From NCBI RefSeq assembly GCF_003334305.1, contig NZ_QOWS01000004.1: a DNA stretch of 64,000 nucleotides. One strand, written 5' to 3'. Under the pieces are notes generated by a model. That model ran no database searches and was not told where the DNA came from. It saw only the letters and a list, made by a program, of their open reading frames with translations. Every line of letters starts with the position of its first letter. Positions within the stretch are counted from its first letter, which is position 1. The translations under genes were made by a program, and so were the position numbers. Origin of the DNA: Escherichia coli. GTDB lineage: Bacteria; Pseudomonadota; Gammaproteobacteria; Enterobacterales; Enterobacteriaceae. Shown here one piece after another: positions 23,570-30,628 of this stretch.

Positions 23570-24217
23570 TTACTCTTCAATCCGTAACCCATAGGTTTTG
23601 AATTTCTCCAGCACTACGGCAATCTCTTCATCGCTCAGCACTGGCACCGGGTCCGTAATCGCCAGGGTCGTCAGGTAAAGTTGCGCCAGCACTTCAACTT
23701 CATGCGCCAGCCATAACGCTTTTTCCAGATTCACCTCACAAGCGATAAGCCCATGATGTTGTAACAAAGTTGCCTTACGATTTTTGAGAGCCAGCGCAAC
23801 ATGTTCAGAAAGTTCGCGTGTTCCAAAGGTCGCATAAGGCGCGCAAGGAATAGAATTACCACCTGCCGCCGCAATCATGTAGTGAATAGCGGGGATCGGT
23901 CGGTTAAGAATGGAAACTGCTGTGCAATGAACGGCATGATTGTGAACAACCGCGTTGGCATCCGGTCTGCTTTGATAGGCCGCCATATGGAAACGCCATT
24001 CGCTTGAGGGGAGCTTTCCTTCCTCATGTTTACCGTTGCCATCAATAAAGACAATATGCGACTCCGTCAGTTTTTCATATGGAATGCCTGTAGGCGTAAT
24101 CAGCATCCCATCCTGATAACGTACACTGACGTTCCCCGCTGTCCCCTGGTTCAGTCCCAGGCGGGTCATTTCCAGGCAAGTGTCAATAATCTGACGAGCA
24201 AGTTTATTTCGTTCCAT
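23570..24217 (-). CDS. fucA: L-fuculose-1-phosphate aldolase
   Basis: 215-aa ORF MERNKLARQIIDTCLEMTRLGLNQGTAGNVSVRYQDGMLITPTG... (class II aldolase). Confidence 0.96.
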   Translation of the reverse strand: MERNKLARQIIDTCLEMTRLGLNQGTAGNVSVRYQDGMLITPTGIPYEKLTESHIVFIDGNGKHEEGKLPSSEWRFHMAAYQSRPDANAVVHNHAVHCTAVSILNRPIPAIHYMIAAAGGNSIPCAPYATFGTRELSEHVALALKNRKATLLQHHGLIACEVNLEKALWLAHEVEVLAQLYLTTLAITDPVPVLSDEEIAVVLEKFKTYGLRIEE

Positions 24218-24402
24218 TAGCTACCTCTCTCTGATTCAAAACAGGGCAATAATGTTGTTCCTTTCACACTATTGAATTAGCCGTTTAATTACCCACCATC
24301 TTCTTCCTGATTAACAAGAAAGAAATTCACAAGCTTATATTTTGTGACCTGGTTCAACTAATCACAGTAAATAACTGCAAGTTCTCTTTTTATAACCCCA
24401 TT

Positions 24403-24545
24403 AAAAATGACCGCTCTTAAAAATATTTATCAAAACGGTCATTTTTCTATTCACCCAAGCCAGGAATGCCCGTTTTCGGCATAAACAATTAATACGGTCA
24501 TCTGGTTTGTGTTTTTTATGATTTATTTTCTGAAACGGGCATGAA
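24403..24545. promoter_or_regulatory. Array of five CGG(T/G)CAT heptamers in the fucA/fucP divergent control region (candidate FucR operator sites)
   Basis: atgaccg (24407-13), cggtcat (24436-42), atgcccg (24466-72), cggtcat (24495-501) and cgggcat (24536-42). The first two form a 10-bp inverted repeat, AAAATGACCG-N20-CGGTCATTTT. Confidence 0.5.
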
Positions 24546-24559
24546 ATTTCGATTATTAA

Positions 24560-24575
24560 AGTGATGGTAGTCACA
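24560..24575. promoter_or_regulatory. CRP-binding-site-like sequence upstream of fucPIKUR
   Basis: aGTGAtggtagTCACa matches the TGTGA-N6-TCACA consensus at 9/10 positions, ~190 bp upstream of the fucP ATG. A weaker site, tTGTGAcctggtTCAAc, lies at 24342-24358. Confidence 0.55.
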
Positions 24576-24763
24576 TAAAGTCACCTTCCAGCTAATAAGT
24601 GTGACCGCCGTCATATTACAGAGCGTTTTTTATTTGAAAATGAATCCATGAGTTCATTTCAGACAGGCAAATATTCACTGATATGAAGCCCGAACTCGCT
24701 GGTTTTGCACTTTTGAAAACATAACCGATTACGTGCTTAAGCTTCTGAACCTAAGAGGATGCT

Positions 24764-26080
24764 ATGGGAAACACATCAATACAAACGCAGAGTTACCGTG
24801 CGGTAGATAAAGATGCAGGGCAAAGCAGAAGTTACATTATTCCATTCGCGCTGCTGTGCTCACTGTTTTTTCTTTGGGCGGTAGCCAATAACCTTAACGA
24901 CATTTTATTACCTCAATTCCAGCAGGCTTTTACGCTGACAAATTTCCAGGCTGGCCTGATCCAATCGGCCTTTTACTTTGGTTATTTCATTATCCCAATC
25001 CCTGCTGGGATATTGATGAAAAAACTCAGCTATAAAGCAGGGATTATTACCGGATTATTTTTATATGCCTTGGGCGCTGCATTATTCTGGCCCGCTGCAG
25101 AAATAATGAACTACACCTTATTTTTAGTTGGCCTATTTATTATTGCAGCCGGATTAGGTTGTCTGGAAACTGCCGCAAACCCTTTTGTTACGGTATTAGG
25201 GCCAGAAAGCAGTGGTCACTTCCGCTTAAATCTTGCGCAAACATTTAACTCGTTTGGCGCAATTATCGCGGTTGTCTTTGGGCAAAGTCTTATTTTGTCT
25301 AACGTGCCACATCAATCGCAAGACGTTCTCGATAAAATGTCTCCAGAGCAATTGAGTGCGTATAAACACAGCCTGGTATTATCGGTACAGACACCTTATA
25401 TGATCATCGTGGCTATCGTGTTACTGGTCGCCCTGCTGATCATGCTGACGAAATTCCCGGCATTGCAGAGTGATAATCACAGTGACGCCAAACAAGGATC
25501 GTTCTCCGCATCGCTTTCTCGTCTGGCGCGTATTCGTCACTGGCGCTGGGCGGTATTAGCGCAATTCTGCTATGTCGGCGCACAAACGGCCTGCTGGAGC
25601 TATTTGATTCGCTACGCTGTAGAAGAAATTCCAGGTATGACTGCCGGCTTTGCCGCTAACTATTTAACCGGAACCATGGTGTGCTTCTTTATTGGTCGTT
25701 TCACCGGTACCTGGCTCATCAGTCGCTTCGCACCACACAAAGTCCTGGCCGCCTACGCATTAATCGCTATGGCACTGTGCCTGATCTCAGCCTTCGCTGG
25801 CGGTCATGTGGGCTTAATAGCCCTGACTTTATGCAGCGCCTTTATGTCGATTCAGTACCCAACAATCTTCTCGCTGGGCATTAAGAATCTCGGCCAGGAC
25901 ACCAAATACGGTTCGTCCTTCATCGTTATGACCATTATTGGCGGCGGTATTGTCACTCCGGTCATGGGTTTTGTCAGTGACGCGGCGGGCAACATCCCCA
26001 CTGCTGAACTGATCCCCGCACTCTGCTTCGCGGTCATCTTTATCTTTGCCCGTTTCCGTTCTCAAACGGCAACTAACTGA
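24764..26080 (+). CDS. fucP: L-fucose:H+ symporter (MFS)
   Basis: 438-aa hydrophobic ORF MGNTSIQTQSYRAVDKDAGQSRSYIIPFALLCSLFFLWAVANNLNDILLPQFQQAF...; RBS aggatg precedes the ATG. Confidence 0.96.
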   Translation: MGNTSIQTQSYRAVDKDAGQSRSYIIPFALLCSLFFLWAVANNLNDILLPQFQQAFTLTNFQAGLIQSAFYFGYFIIPIPAGILMKKLSYKAGIITGLFLYALGAALFWPAAEIMNYTLFLVGLFIIAAGLGCLETAANPFVTVLGPESSGHFRLNLAQTFNSFGAIIAVVFGQSLILSNVPHQSQDVLDKMSPEQLSAYKHSLVLSVQTPYMIIVAIVLLVALLIMLTKFPALQSDNHSDAKQGSFSASLSRLARIRHWRWAVLAQFCYVGAQTACWSYLIRYAVEEIPGMTAGFAANYLTGTMVCFFIGRFTGTWLISRFAPHKVLAAYALIAMALCLISAFAGGHVGLIALTLCSAFMSIQYPTIFSLGIKNLGQDTKYGSSFIVMTIIGGGIVTPVMGFVSDAAGNIPTAELIPALCFAVIFIFARFRSQTATN

Positions 26081-26112
26081 ACATATTTTCCGAATAAAGT
26101 GAGGAATCTGTA

Positions 26113-27888
26113 ATGAAAAAAATCAGCTTACCGAAAATTGGTATCCGCCCGGTTATTGACGGTCGTCGCATGGGTGTTCGTGAGTCGCTTGAAGAACAAA
26201 CAATGAATATGGCGAAAGCTACGGCCGCACTGCTGACCGAGAAACTGCGCCATGCCTGCGGAGCTGCCGTCGAGTGTGTCATTTCCGATACCTGTATCGC
26301 GGGTATGGCTGAAGCCGCTGCTTGCGAAGAAAAATTCAGCAGCCAGAATGTAGGCCTCACCATTACGGTAACGCCTTGCTGGTGCTATGGCAGTGAAACC
26401 ATCGACATGGATCCAACCCGCCCGAAAGCCATTTGGGGCTTTAACGGCACTGAACGTCCCGGCGCTGTTTACCTGGCAGCGGCTCTGGCAGCTCACAGCC
26501 AGAAAGGCATCCCGGCATTCTCCATTTACGGTCATGACGTTCAGGATGCCGATGACACATCGATTCCTGCCGATGTTGAAGAAAAACTGCTGCGCTTTGC
26601 CCGCGCCGGTTTGGCCGTCGCCAGCATGAAAGGTAAAAGCTATCTGTCGCTGGGCGGCGTTTCGATGGGTATCGCCGGTTCCATCGTTGATCACAACTTC
26701 TTTGAATCCTGGCTGGGAATGAAAGTCCAGGCGGTGGATATGACCGAACTGCGTCGCCGTATCGATCAGAAGATTTACGACGAAGCCGAACTGGAAATGG
26801 CACTGGCCTGGGCTGATAAAAACTTCCGCTATGGCGAAGATGAAAATAACAAACAGTATCAACGCAATGCCGAGCAAAGCCGCGCAGTTCTGCGCGAAAG
26901 TTTACTGATGGCGATGTGTATCCGCGACATGATGCAAGGCAACAGCAAACTGGCCGATATTGGTCGCGTGGAAGAATCACTTGGCTACAACGCCATCGCT
27001 GCGGGCTTCCAGGGGCAACGTCACTGGACCGATCAATATCCCAATGGTGACACCGCCGAAGCGATCCTCAACAGTTCATTTGACTGGAATGGCGTGCGCG
27101 AACCCTTTGTCGTGGCGACCGAAAACGACAGTCTTAACGGCGTGGCAATGCTAATGGGTCACCAGCTCACCGGCACCGCTCAGGTATTTGCCGATGTGCG
27201 TACCTACTGGTCACCAGAAGCAATTGAGCGTGTAACGGGGCATAAACTCGATGGACTGGCAGAACACGGCATCATCCATTTGATCAACTCAGGTTCTGCT
27301 GCGCTGGACGGTTCCTGTAAACAACGCGACAGCGAAGGTAACCCGACGATGAAGCCGCACTGGGAAATCTCTCAGCAAGAGGCTGACGCTTGCCTCGCCG
27401 CTACCGAATGGTGCCCGGCGATCCACGAATACTTCCGTGGCGGCGGTTACTCTTCCCGCTTCCTTACCGAAGGCGGCGTCCCGTTCACCATGACTCGTGT
27501 CAACATCATCAAAGGCCTGGGACCGGTACTGCAAATCGCGGAAGGCTGGAGCGTGGAATTGCCGAAGGATGTGCATGACATCCTCAACAAACGCACCAAC
27601 TCAACCTGGCCAACCACCTGGTTTGCACCGCGCCTCACCGGTAAAGGGCCGTTTACGGATGTGTATTCGGTAATGGCGAACTGGGGCGCTAACCACGGGG
27701 TTCTGACCATCGGCCACGTTGGCGCAGACTTTATCACTCTCGCCTCCATGCTGCGTATCCCGGTATGTATGCACAACGTTGAAGAGACCAAAGTATATCG
27801 TCCTTCTGCCTGGGCCGCGCACGGCATGGATATTGAAGGTCAGGATTACCGCGCTTGCCAGAACTACGGCCCGTTGTACAAGCGTTAA
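26113..27888 (+). CDS. fucI: L-fucose isomerase
   Basis: 591-aa [39 protein letters not shown]...; RBS gaggaa upstream. Confidence 0.96.
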
Positions 27889-29416: not shown

Positions 29417-29839
29417 ATGCTGAAAACAATTTCGCCGTTAATTTCTCCCGAACTATTGAAAGTGCTGGCAGAGATGGGACATGGAGATGAAATTATTTTT
29501 TCCGATGCTCACTTTCCCGCCCATTCGATGGGACCGCAGGTGATCCGCGCTGATGGCCTGTTGGTGAGCGACTTGCTCCAGGCGATTATCCCGTTATTTG
29601 AGCTGGACAGTTATGCCCCGCCGCTGGTGATGATGGCAGCGGTAGAAGGTGACACTCTCGATCCTGAAGTAGAACGACGTTACCGTAATGCGCTTTCACT
29701 ACAAGCCCCGTGTCCTGACATCATCCGCATCAATCGTTTTGCGTTTTATGAACGGGCGCAAAAAGCCTTTGCGATCGTTATCACAGGCGAACGAGCGAAG
29801 TACGGGAATATTCTTTTAAAAAAAGGGGTAACACCGTAA
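29417..29839 (+). CDS. fucU: L-fucose mutarotase
   Basis: 140-aa [42 protein letters not shown]... (RbsD/FucU family). Confidence 0.95.
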
Positions 29840-29896: not shown

Positions 29897-30628
29897 ATGA
29901 AAGCGGCACGCCAGCAAGCGATAGTCGACCTGCTGCTGAACCATACCAGCCTGACCACGGAAGCTCTCTCTGAACAGCTAAAGGTCAGTAAAGAAACCAT
30001 TCGTCGTGATCTCAATGAATTACAGACGCAGGGTAAAATTCTGCGCAATCATGGACGCGCTAAATATATCCACCGTCAAAATCAAGACAGTGGCGATCCC
30101 TTTCACATCCGGCTGAAAAGCCATTATGCGCATAAAGCAGATATCGCGCGCGAGGCGCTCGCGTGGATTGAAGAAGGGATGGTGATAGCCTTAGACGCCA
30201 GTTCAACTTGCTGGTATCTGGCACGCCAGTTGCCTGACATCAACATTCAGGTCTTCACCAATAGCCATCCGATTTGCCATGAACTCGGTAAACGCGAACG
30301 CATTCAACTGATCAGTTCCGGCGGCACACTTGAGCGCAAATATGGCTGTTACGTCAATCCCTCGCTGATTTCCCAACTTAAATCGCTGGAAATCGATCTG
30401 TTTATTTTTTCTTGTGAAGGGATCGATAGCAGCGGCGCACTGTGGGACTCCAATGCCATCAACGCTGATTACAAATCGATGCTATTAAAACGTGCCGCGC
30501 AATCGTTGTTATTGATTGATAAAAGTAAATTTAATCGTTCAGGGGAAGCCCGCATCGGGCATCTGGATGAGGTAACGCACATTATTTCTGATGAGCGCCA
30601 GGTTGCAACTTCTTTGGTAACAGCCTGA
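29897..30628 (+). CDS. fucR: DeoR-family transcriptional activator of the fuc regulon
   Basis: The ORF track begins at a GTG (29888); the recognised protein begins MKAARQQAIVDLLLNHTSLTTEALSEQLKVSKETIRRDLNEL at the ATG at 29897 (243 aa), with an N-terminal HTH. Confidence 0.93.
   Translation: MKAARQQAIVDLLLNHTSLTTEALSEQLKVSKETIRRDLNELQTQGKILRNHGRAKYIHRQNQDSGDPFHIRLKSHYAHKADIAREALAWIEEGMVIALDASSTCWYLARQLPDINIQVFTNSHPICHELGKRERIQLISSGGTLERKYGCYVNPSLISQLKSLEIDLFIFSCEGIDSSGALWDSNAINADYKSMLLKRAAQSLLLIDKSKFNRSGEARIGHLDEVTHIISDERQVATSLVTA

What the first reader, a model, noticed from the sequence alone, without database searches (positions are those of the whole stretch)
24218..24763. Repeated CGG(T/G)CAT heptamers and CRP-like sites in the fucAO/fucPIKUR divergent control region
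Five copies of one heptamer occur in both orientations over 140 bp, the first two as a 10-bp inverted repeat (AAAATGACCG…CGGTCATTTT), together with a 9/10 CRP consensus at 24560-24575 and a weaker one at 24342-24358. This looks like an operator array for the DeoR-family activator FucR encoded at the end of the operon. The exact FucR site is not something I can recall as established, so this is a concrete candidate.
Basis: seen in the sequence. Interest (0 to 1): 0.45.

Follow-up and report, generated by a model that had tools for sequence, protein, structure and literature searches.

The report
FucR and CRP sites, fuc promoters
The repeated CGG(T/G)CAT heptamers are real, strongly conserved binding sites for the fucose activator FucR in the E. 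coli fucAO/fucPIKUR control region, but the motif and two of the sites were already published in 2021-2024, so the finding is correct and not new.

Summary
Window 24218-24763 is the E. coli fucA/fucP intergenic region. It holds five exact CGGKCAT heptamers, at 24407(-), 24436(+), 24466(-), 24495(+) and 24536(+). About 0.05 are expected by chance.

The interpretation as a FucR operator array is supported, but it is already in the literature:
- A DAP-seq FucR motif (..AAACGG[T/G]CA[T/A]..) was published by Baumgart in 2021.
- Zhang et al. 2024 mutated two of these sites. OFucR3 is site 1, and its loss reduced fucAO induction more than 50-fold. OFucR2 is site 3, and its loss cost about 30%.
- A 2025 paper speaks of four known sites.

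My comparison of 43 other Enterobacterales genomes shows all five sites as conserved islands in the same order and orientation. The geometry is rigid. The inverted pairs S1/S2 and S3/S4 are 28 bp apart, S4-S5 is 41-42 bp, and only the S2-S3 linker varies. Distant FucR homologues (36-39% identity) carry the same core in their fuc control regions.

The modest additions here are that site 2 appears unnamed in the papers' text, the two-module geometry, and a conserved TGTGGnTTT block.

The parts
24405..24419 (-). FucR site S1 (TTAAGAGCGGTCATT), the published OFucR3. It is the promoter-proximal FucR site of PfucAO, with its hexamer centre about -130 from the fucA transcription start.
   Evidence: Exact heptamer. 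The sequence is identical to OFucR3, whose mutation lowered induced PfucAO more than 50-fold. PWM score 14.0; found in 39 of 44 genomes, often as CGGACAT outside Escherichia.
24430..24444 (+). FucR site S2 (TCAAAACGGTCATTT), the inverted partner of S1 with hexamer starts 28 bp apart. Its sequence is not given in either paper's text, and its position between OFucR2 and OFucR3 suggests it is unnamed.
   Evidence: Exact heptamer. PWM score 19.5; present in 44 of 44 genomes. S1-S2 spacing is 28-29 bp in all 44. The published truncation V6 (-206, window 24423) removes S2 and S3 yet keeps about 70% of induction.
24464..24478 (-). FucR site S3 (CGAAAACGGGCATTC; K-12 has CGGTCAT), the published OFucR2.
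   Evidence: Mutation cost about 30% of induced PfucAO. PWM score 19.8; found in 43 of 44 genomes.
24489..24503 (+). FucR site S4 (TTAATACGGTCATCT), the inverted partner of S3 at 28 bp. It is probably one of the 'putative OR0/OR1' operators assigned to PfucPIKUR.
   Evidence: PWM score 17.1; found in 44 of 44 genomes. S3-S4 spacing is 28 bp in 42 of 44. Putative OR0/OR1 are mentioned in PMC11894529.
24530..24544 (+). FucR site S5 (CTGAAACGGGCATGA), the site nearest the fucP promoter. Its hexamer centre lies 29 bp from the centre of OCrp1.
   Evidence: PWM score 14.8; found in 40 of 44 genomes. S4-S5 spacing is 41-42 bp, and S5-OCrp1 spacing is fixed in 42 of 44.
24505..24516 (.). Conserved block TTTGTGTTTTTT (CTGTGGGTTT in most genera) of unknown role. 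It lies 13 bp after the S4 hexamer start and 28-29 bp before S5. It mirrors S5 only at the AAA and CA positions.
   Evidence: It does not score as a FucR site with the PWM.
24250..24271 (.). CRP site OCrp3, in the fucA 5' UTR.
   Evidence: Reverse complement of the published 'tagTGTGAaaggaacaACAtta'. 2-mismatch consensus match at 24253-68.
24340..24361 (.). CRP site OCrp2, centred at -70.5 from the fucA transcription start and essential for PfucAO.
   Evidence: Reverse complement of the published 'ttagtTGAaccaggTCACAaaa'. Consensus match. TGTGA is near-invariant across genera.
24557..24578 (.). CRP site OCrp1 (core AGTGAtggtagTCACA at 24560-75).
   Evidence: It lies on the fucA side of the K-12 IS5 target (window 24588-91), as stated for OCrp1. 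Both half-sites are invariant across genera.
24597..24618 (.). CRP site OCrp0 (core TGTGAccgccgTCATA at 24600-15). Its position is inferred to be about -41 from the fucP transcription start.
   Evidence: Reverse complement of the published 'taaTaTGAcggcggTCACActt'. Consensus match; conserved.
24280..24290 (-). PfucAO transcription start (C at 24280 on the minus strand, -63 from the fucA ATG) and the -10 element aATtAa (24285-90).
   Evidence: 5'RACE result in PMC11011485, mapped onto the window sequence.
24626..24649 (+). Conserved block GTTTTTTATTTGAAAATGA, inferred to be the fucP core promoter (-10 GAAAAT at 24636-41, start near 24648).
   Evidence: Conservation, and a fixed 36-bp distance from OCrp0 in 42 of 44 genomes. 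The transcription start is inferred and was not verified.
23570..24217 (-). fucA (L-fuculose-phosphate aldolase), first gene of fucAO.
24764..26080 (+). fucP (L-fucose:H+ symporter), first gene of fucPIKUR.
29897..30628 (+). fucR, the DeoR-family L-fucose operon activator (243 aa) and last gene of the operon.
   Evidence: NCBIfam NF007720, 508 bits against a cut-off of 259. Pfam PF08220 plus PF00455 in homologues.

Best explanation
The five heptamers are the cores of five binding sites (consensus about AAACGGKCAT) for FucR, the fuculose-1-phosphate-activated DeoR-family activator encoded at the end of fucPIKUR. With four CRP sites they form the shared control region of two divergent, activator-dependent promoters.

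Proposed sequence of events. Fucose is converted to fuculose-1-P. FucR bound to this effector occupies the sites. Bound FucR helps CRP-cAMP occupy its weak sites, and CRP then recruits RNA polymerase. At PfucAO the relevant CRP site is OCrp2 at -70.5. At PfucPIKUR they are OCrp1 and OCrp0, at roughly -81 and -41. Because fucR is the last gene of fucPIKUR, the circuit is positively autoregulated.

Shown by others:
- the FucR motif in vitro (DAP-seq);
- the dependence of fucAO induction on S1 (strong) and S3 (weak);
- the requirement for OCrp2;
- the fucA transcription start.

Shown here:
- all five sites, all four CRP sites and their spacings are conserved across Enterobacterales;
- the same core recurs next to distant FucR homologues.

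Inferred:
- FucR binds S2, S4 and S5.
- S4 and S5 (with S3) serve PfucPIKUR.
- The functional units are inverted half-site pairs, ATGMCCGTTT-N16-AAACGGKCAT. Their dyad centres lie about 41-43 bp (four helical turns) from each other and from the CRP sites on the fucP side.
- The region therefore consists of two rigid modules, OCrp2-S1-S2 and S3-S4-S5-OCrp1-OCrp0, joined by a variable S2-S3 linker.
For: - Exact sites, and clustering far beyond chance.
- Published consensus and site-directed mutagenesis of S1 (OFucR3) and S3 (OFucR2), and truncations at -270, -206 and -166 (K-12 sequence match).
- 'Putative OR0, OR1' plus OR2 and OR3, described as 'four known binding sites'.
- 43 other genomes, from Escherichia to Yersinia, Hafnia, Photorhabdus and Rahnella, keep the hexamers in the order -,+,-,+,+.
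- The alignment shows the sites as islands of conservation. The majority-base fraction is 0.91 in hexamer columns against 0.61 in the other columns of 24380-24555.
- A PWM scan finds exactly these five recurrent positions, in 39-44 of 44 sequences.
- Spacings: S1-S2 28/29 bp, S3-S4 28 bp (42/44), S4-S5 41-42 bp, S5-OCrp1 fixed, S2-S3 about 20-50 bp.
- FucR identity.
- Loci with distant FucR homologues (36-39% identity) and other gene orders carry clusters of the same core. These include (-,+) pairs 30 bp apart, and in L050 an adjacent CRP-like site.
Against: - No direct binding data could be inspected for any individual site. The DAP-seq paper is not held, and figures are not available.
- S2, S4 and S5 rest on motif match and conservation only.
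- The pair model is weakened by the published V6 construct. It retains S1 alone and still gives about 70% of induction, so S2 is not needed for PfucAO in that reporter.
- S1 is the least conserved site outside Escherichia, although it is the critical one for fucAO in K-12.
- A 28-bp half-site separation is not what I know of classical DeoR or GlpR operators (own knowledge).
- The fucP transcription start used for the position numbers is inferred.
Confidence: 0.9

Rival explanations
1. Only the two experimentally tested heptamers (S1, S3) are FucR sites. S2, S4 and S5 are non-functional look-alikes.
For: Only S1 and S3 were mutated. Removing S2 together with S3 costs no more than mutating S3 alone.
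Against: S2, S4 and S5 are the best conserved of the five, present in 40-44 of 44 genomes while the surrounding sequence diverges. Their spacing to each other and to OCrp1 is fixed. The published assays measured only PfucAO, not PfucPIKUR. The 2025 paper itself lists two further putative operators for fucPIKUR.
Confidence: 0.05
2. The heptamers are bound by a regulator other than FucR, such as SrsR or an unknown factor, and the FucR dependence is indirect.
For: No footprint is available. SrsR has been reported to affect the fuc operons.
Against: The motif was derived from an in vitro FucR-DNA binding assay, as quoted. Site mutations matter only under fucose induction. Zhang et al. found no SrsR dependence, and the proposed SrsR site lies in the fucP 5' UTR. 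The core co-occurs with FucR homologues in unrelated gene orders.
Confidence: 0.03
3. The repeats are a chance cluster or a non-regulatory feature, such as a small ORF, an RNA hairpin, or remnants of a mobile element.
For: The heptamers contain ATG. Short ORFs of 25-57 aa can be drawn across the region. S1 and S2 form a 44-bp near-palindrome.
Against: Simulations never reach this clustering. The ORFs cross the variable linker and are not conserved. There is no Rfam match above noise and no terminator-like site. The region lies upstream of the mapped fucA transcription start and of the inferred fucP start. Symmetry is confined to the 9-10 bp cores, and the spacer is no more symmetric than shuffled sequence.
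Confidence: 0.02

Closest known systems
Published FucR operators OFucR2/OFucR3 (OR2/OR3) and putative OR0/OR1 of E. coli K-12 (Baumgart et al. 2021 motif; Zhang et al. 2024, PMC11011485; Zhang et al. 2025, PMC11894529)
   Same: Same locus and same motif. S1 is identical to OFucR3. S3 is identical to OFucR2 apart from the tolerated T/G polymorphism. The four CRP sites equal OCrp0-3.
   Different: The papers speak of four sites, and their text gives sequences for only two. The sequence and the comparison here show five equally conserved sites. S2 lies between OR2 and OR3, so it is probably the unnamed one; this could not be checked because the figures are not held. The fixed 28-bp inverted pairing, the two-module layout and the TGTGGnTTT block are not in the text I could read.
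Multi-operator control regions of other DeoR-family regulators (DeoR at deoCABD, GlpR at the glp operons, AgaR, UlaR); comparison from my own knowledge
   Same: The regulator has an N-terminal HTH_DeoR domain and a C-terminal sugar-phosphate-binding DeoRC domain. A phosphorylated pathway intermediate is the effector, and several dispersed sites occupy one control region.
   Different: Those proteins are repressors released by the effector, and they use short palindromes or tandem repeats. FucR is an activator that needs its effector. Its sites are asymmetric 10-mers, paired at 28 bp and not symmetric in between.
CRP-dependent promoters that also need a sugar-specific activator (Class III type, for example araBAD with AraC, rhaBAD with RhaS, malE/malK with MalT); from my own knowledge and the discussion in PMC11894529
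   Same: Weak core promoters (no sigma-70 consensus match), one or two CRP sites, and a specific activator bound further upstream that helps CRP and RNA polymerase. The layout is divergent.
   Different: The specific activator belongs to the DeoR family rather than the AraC or MalT families. It sits upstream of CRP rather than next to the -35 element.

Membership tests
FucR binding site (DAP-seq consensus [GA][CT][CG][AC][AG][ATC][AT]CGG[TG]CA[TA][TCG]) | Match to the invariant core CGG-K-CA-(T/A) with an A-rich 5' flank | tested here: met
   Five exact CGGKCAT copies. All five score 14-20 bits with a PWM built from 139 orthologous instances, and nothing else in the region exceeds 6 bits. The consensus is quoted.
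FucR binding site (DAP-seq consensus [GA][CT][CG][AC][AG][ATC][AT]CGG[TG]CA[TA][TCG]) | Lies in the control region of FucR-regulated operons in a genome that encodes FucR | tested here: met
   The region is the fucA/fucP intergenic region. fucR at 29897-30628 matches NF007720 at 508 bits.
FucR binding site (DAP-seq consensus [GA][CT][CG][AC][AG][ATC][AT]CGG[TG]CA[TA][TCG]) | Sequence identity with sites whose mutation abolishes FucR-dependent induction | tested here: met
   S1 equals OFucR3 and S3 equals OFucR2. This holds for two of the five sites only.
   Present in 39-44 of 44 sequences at each of the five positions. The same core lies next to FucR homologues of 36-39% identity.
FucR binding site (DAP-seq consensus [GA][CT][CG][AC][AG][ATC][AT]CGG[TG]CA[TA][TCG]) | Direct, effector-dependent binding of FucR to each individual site (EMSA, footprint, or DAP-seq peak) | not testable with these tools
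   The DAP-seq paper is not held. No footprint was found in the library.
CRP-cAMP binding site | 22-bp site with TGTGA-N6-TCACA cores and at most 2 core mismatches | tested here: met
   Matches at 24253, 24343, 24560 and 24600. These are 4 of the 25 matches in the 64-kb window, all within 546 bp.
CRP-cAMP binding site | Correspondence to functionally tested sites, and conservation | tested here: met
   Sequences equal the published OCrp0, OCrp2 and OCrp3. OCrp1 was assigned by its position relative to the IS5 target. The majority-base fraction in half-site columns of OCrp0, OCrp1 and OCrp2 is 0.97 (OCrp3 columns were not included).
Classical DeoR-family operator (short palindrome or tandem 10-bp repeats, as at deo and glp) | Dyad or tandem half-sites about 8-10 bp apart within one 16-20 bp operator | tested here: not met
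   Each FucR site is an asymmetric 9-10 bp core. Partners lie 28 bp apart, and the 16-bp spacer is no more symmetric than shuffled sequence. The description of the classical operators is from my own knowledge.

The most novel reading that the evidence does not exclude
FucR may not act through four independent 15-bp sites. It may act through inverted half-site pairs (ATGMCCGTTT-N16-AAACGGKCAT, hexamers 28 bp apart) arranged in two rigid modules joined by a variable linker. The fucAO module is OCrp2-S1-S2. The fucPIKUR module is S3-S4-TGTGGnTTT-S5-OCrp1-OCrp0.

On the fucP side the pair centres and CRP centres follow each other at about 41-43 bp, or four helical turns. That would mean one face of the helix carries an ordered FucR/CRP assembly.

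On this reading, S2 is a fifth real site missing from the published model. S3 (OFucR2) belongs mainly to the fucPIKUR module. The conserved TGTGGnTTT block is a degenerate partner half-site for S5, or a site for another factor. Such long-spaced half-sites would be an unusual binding mode for a DeoR-family protein.
Probability: 0.4. Interest if true: 0.35.

Novelty: already known. Interest (0 to 1): 0.18.

Why it matters
The fuc regulon is a textbook case of a divergent, doubly activated sugar regulon and of IS5-mediated activation, so a correct operator map is useful. The core result, that CGG(T/G)CAT is the FucR site, has been in print since 2021-2024, so this finding does not open a new question.

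The comparison across genera adds a testable refinement:
- a fifth site;
- pairs with fixed spacing;
- two modules;
- a conserved unexplained block.

This could guide footprinting and work on the still uncharacterised FucR control of fucPIKUR. It also shows that the first-stage reader recovered a real transcription-factor motif from raw sequence alone.

Tried and rejected
1. A second cluster of CGGTCAT copies in the 3' end of fucP and the 5' end of fucI (25801, 25959, 26031, 26529, 26740; five in 945 bp). It looked enriched. The '+' copies are not conserved outside Escherichia, and the conserved '-' copies disappear in Yersinia and Hafnia. I treat it as chance or codon-driven.

2. Small ORFs starting at the ATG of the heptamers. 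Rejected because they run through non-conserved, length-variable sequence.

3. An RNA element or terminator. Only a sub-threshold Rfam hit appeared (tsr25, 20 bits against 63), and no terminator-like site.

4. Extended palindromic operators. Symmetry stops at the AAACGGKCA core.

5. Additional weaker FucR sites. The PWM scan finds none that recur, apart from a CGGTCA inside OCrp0 in 4 genomes. The whole-window count of AAACGGKCA with 1 mismatch is at the chance level.

6. A solved structure of a FucR relative, to judge half-site geometry. phmmer against the PDB found nothing at E <= 0.001.

7. Papers that would give the DAP-seq peaks and the fucP start site (Baumgart 2021, Zhang 2010, Podolny 1999) are not held. 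A literature search for the fucP start led nowhere.

8. The search for homologous proteins returned only close FucR relatives. Distant ones came from the representative search. Two of its top hits lie on contigs too short to help.

Full report
**What is there.** The window segment 24218-24763 is the 546-bp intergenic region between fucA (23570-24217, minus strand) and fucP (24764-26080, plus strand) of Escherichia coli. It is 99% identical to K-12 MG1655 between b2800 and b2801. It is found in 5025 of 5426 complete E. coli genomes. The operon on the plus strand continues through fucI, fucK and fucU to fucR (29897-30628). The fucR product matches the NCBIfam equivalog 'L-fucose operon activator' at 508 bits against a cut-off of 259. 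It belongs to the DeoR/GlpR family, with HTH_DeoR PF08220 and DeoRC PF00455 domains.

**Check of the observation.** Exact CGGKCAT copies lie at 24407(-), 24436(+), 24466(-), 24495(+) and 24536(+).

The heptamer is not enriched in the window as a whole (29 copies against about 21 expected), but the cluster is far beyond chance. None of 400 simulated windows had more than 3 copies in 140 bp. Sequence simulated with the composition of the intergenic region carries 0.054 copies on average, and none of 20,000 simulations had more than 2.

Two more were missed, at 24600-15 (1 mismatch) and 24253-68 (2 mismatches).

**What the literature already says.** Zhang et al. 2024 (PMC11011485) quote the FucR consensus obtained by Baumgart et al. 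[quoted passage not shown]

They mutated two sites in a PfucAO-lacZ reporter:
- OFucR3, 'ttaagagCGGtCAtt', is window 24405-19 on the minus strand. Its loss cut fucose-induced activity more than 50-fold.
- OFucR2, 'ccgaaaaCGGtCAtt', is window 24464-78 on the minus strand. Its loss cost about 30%. K-12 has T at the degenerate position where this strain has G.

They mapped the fucA transcription start 63 nt upstream of the ATG, which is window 24280. They also validated OCrp2 (window 24340-61, essential) and OCrp3 (24250-71, auxiliary).

The 2025 paper from the same laboratory (PMC11894529) gives OCrp0 as 'taaTaTGAcggcggTCACActt', which is window 24597-618. It places the IS5 target between OCrp0 and OCrp1. 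[quoted passage not shown]

**Independent test by comparison.** A scan of one genome per species recovered 43 other Enterobacterales loci with the same divergent fucA/fucP arrangement. They include Escherichia, Citrobacter, Salmonella, Klebsiella, Raoultella, Kluyvera, Enterobacter, Kosakonia, Mangrovibacter, Yokenella, Buttiauxella, Hafnia, Rahnella, Yersinia and Photorhabdus. The intergenic regions are 467-665 bp long.

In nearly all of them the hexamer CGGKCA recurs in the same order and orientation, -,+,-,+,+. In the alignment the five sites and the CRP half-sites stand out as islands in otherwise diverged sequence. The majority-base fraction is 0.91 in the hexamer columns and 0.61 in the remaining columns of 24380-24555. 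It is 0.97 in the half-site columns of OCrp0, OCrp1 and OCrp2.

The per-site consensus is AAACGGKCA(T). Site 4 has T in place of the last A, and site 1 is often CGGACAT outside Escherichia. A weight matrix built from 139 distinct instances finds exactly these five recurrent positions (39, 44, 43, 44 and 40 of 44 sequences) and no others.

As a negative control, heptamer copies inside fucP and fucI are not retained in the more distant genera, although those coding sequences are far more conserved overall.

**Geometry.** Spacings between hexamer starts are as follows:

| Interval | Spacing | Constancy |
|---|---|---|
| OCrp2 to S1 | 64-65 bp | all 44 |
| S1 to S2 | 28-29 bp | all 44 |
| S2 to S3 | about 20-50 bp | variable |
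| S3 to S4 | 28 bp | 42 of 44 |
| S4 to S5 | 41-42 bp | all 44 |
| S5 to OCrp1 | fixed | 42 of 44 |
| OCrp1 to OCrp0 | 38-39 bp | all 44 |
| OCrp0 to the conserved GAAAAT | 36 bp | 42 of 44 |

The region therefore consists of two rigid blocks joined by one flexible linker between S2 and S3. S1/S2 and S3/S4 are inverted pairs of the form ATGMCCGTTT-N16-AAACGGKCAT. Symmetry does not extend into the spacer.

Taking pair centres, the fucP side reads: OCrp0, 40 bp, OCrp1, 43 bp, centre of (block/S5), 41 bp, centre of S3/S4. These are steps of about four helical turns. That arithmetic and its reading as same-face alignment are my inference.

A further conserved block, CTGTGGGTTT (E. coli TTTGTGTTTTTT, 24505-16), lies exactly 13 bp after S4 and 28-29 bp before S5. 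It mirrors S5 at the AAA and CA positions but not at CGG, and it does not score as a FucR site. I cannot explain it.

**Distant relatives.** FucR orthologues form a tight group. The representative search drops from 67% to 39% identity. Homologues of 36-39% identity sit next to fucI, fucK, fucU and fucA in other gene orders: fucR-IKUAPO, fucR divergent from fucIKA, and fucR-IKAU.

Their fuc control regions again carry clusters of (A/T)-rich CGGKCA(T) cores. These include (-,+) pairs 30 bp apart in L050 (8769/8799) and L053 (99/129), and in L050 an adjacent TGTGAtctttgTCAC CRP-like site. This ties the core to the FucR lineage rather than to the Escherichia locus.

**Mechanism.** The best-supported account is the published one, extended to the whole array. 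Fuculose-1-phosphate-bound FucR occupies the AAACGGKCAT sites. It helps CRP-cAMP occupy its imperfect sites, and CRP recruits RNA polymerase to two promoters that lack a sigma-70 consensus (discussion). fucR, as the last gene of fucPIKUR, is thereby positively autoregulated.

- Shown: the motif (in vitro, by others), the roles of S1, S3, OCrp2 and OCrp3 at PfucAO, and the fucA transcription start.
- Inferred: FucR binding to S2, S4 and S5; their role at PfucPIKUR; the pair and phase model; and the fucP start near 24648.

One point counts against obligatory pairs. The published truncation at -206 (window 24423) removes S2 and S3 but still gives about 70% of induced PfucAO activity. So S1 alone suffices there, and S2 must serve something else, most plausibly the fucPIKUR side or cooperative occupancy.

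**Which sites are new.** The papers' text gives sequences only for OR2 and OR3. Their numbering runs from the fucP side to the fucA side, as with OCrp0-3. OR0 and OR1 should therefore lie on the fucP side of OR2, making them S5 and S4. S2 sits between OR2 and OR3 and would then be unnamed. I could not verify this because figures are not held.

**Rivals.** Three alternatives are each contradicted:
- A chance cluster is contradicted by the simulations.
- A different regulator is contradicted by the FucR-specific assay, by the fucose-dependent effect of the mutations, and by co-occurrence of the core with FucR homologues.
- A small ORF or an RNA element is contradicted by the lack of conservation, of Rfam matches and of terminator-like sites.

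The minimal rival, that only S1 and S3 are functional, is unlikely given that S2, S4 and S5 are the best-conserved sites.

**Verdict.** The increment from this analysis is a five-site map with conserved pair spacing, a two-module layout and an unexplained conserved block. It is modest but directly testable.

Noticed in passing
window 24505-24516: A conserved block, CTGTGGGTTT in most genera and TTTGTGTTTTTT here, sits between FucR sites S4 and S5. It lies 13 bp after the S4 hexamer start in 44 of 44 genomes and 28-29 bp before S5. It shares the AAA and CA positions of the FucR core but has CC where the core has GG. Its role is unknown; it could be a degenerate partner half-site or a site for another factor.
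   Followed up: partly
window 29770-29785: A CRP-like site with one mismatch (TGCGATCGTTATCACA) lies inside the 3' end of fucU, about 110 bp upstream of the fucR start. It could serve the separate fucR promoter implied by the literature.
   Followed up: no
window 24588-24591: This strain has CCAG where K-12 has CTAG. CTAG is the IS5 target used in all propanediol-positive mutants (-374 to -371 from the fucA ATG). The hotspot tetranucleotide is therefore absent here, although CTAA follows at 24592-95.
   Followed up: no
window 25801-26746: Five further CGGKCAT copies lie in the 3' end of fucP and the 5' end of fucI (25801, 25959, 26031, 26529, 26740), about 0.3 expected. They are not conserved in the distant genera, so they are probably chance or codon-driven.
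   Followed up: yes
window 24640-24657: A near-palindrome, ATGAATCCATGAGTTCAT, lies immediately after the inferred fucP -10 element and transcription start. It is conserved in Enterobacteriaceae but not in Yersinia, Hafnia or Photorhabdus. It could be a 5' UTR hairpin or a protein site; the literature mentions an unverified SrsR site in the fucP 5' UTR.
   Followed up: no
window 24600-24615: The CRP site OCrp0 (TGTGACCGccgTCATA) contains a CGGTCA hexamer on the minus strand (24602-07) and CCGTCAT on the plus strand. The hexamer is kept in about half of the genomes but reaches the FucR PWM threshold in only 4.
   Followed up: partly
L044 and L045: Two very short contigs (384 and 279 bp) in assemblies labelled Jiangella anatolica and Chryseobacterium mucoviscidosis encode fragments 100% identical to E. 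coli FucP, with very low coverage given in their names. They look like E. coli contamination of those assemblies.
   Followed up: no
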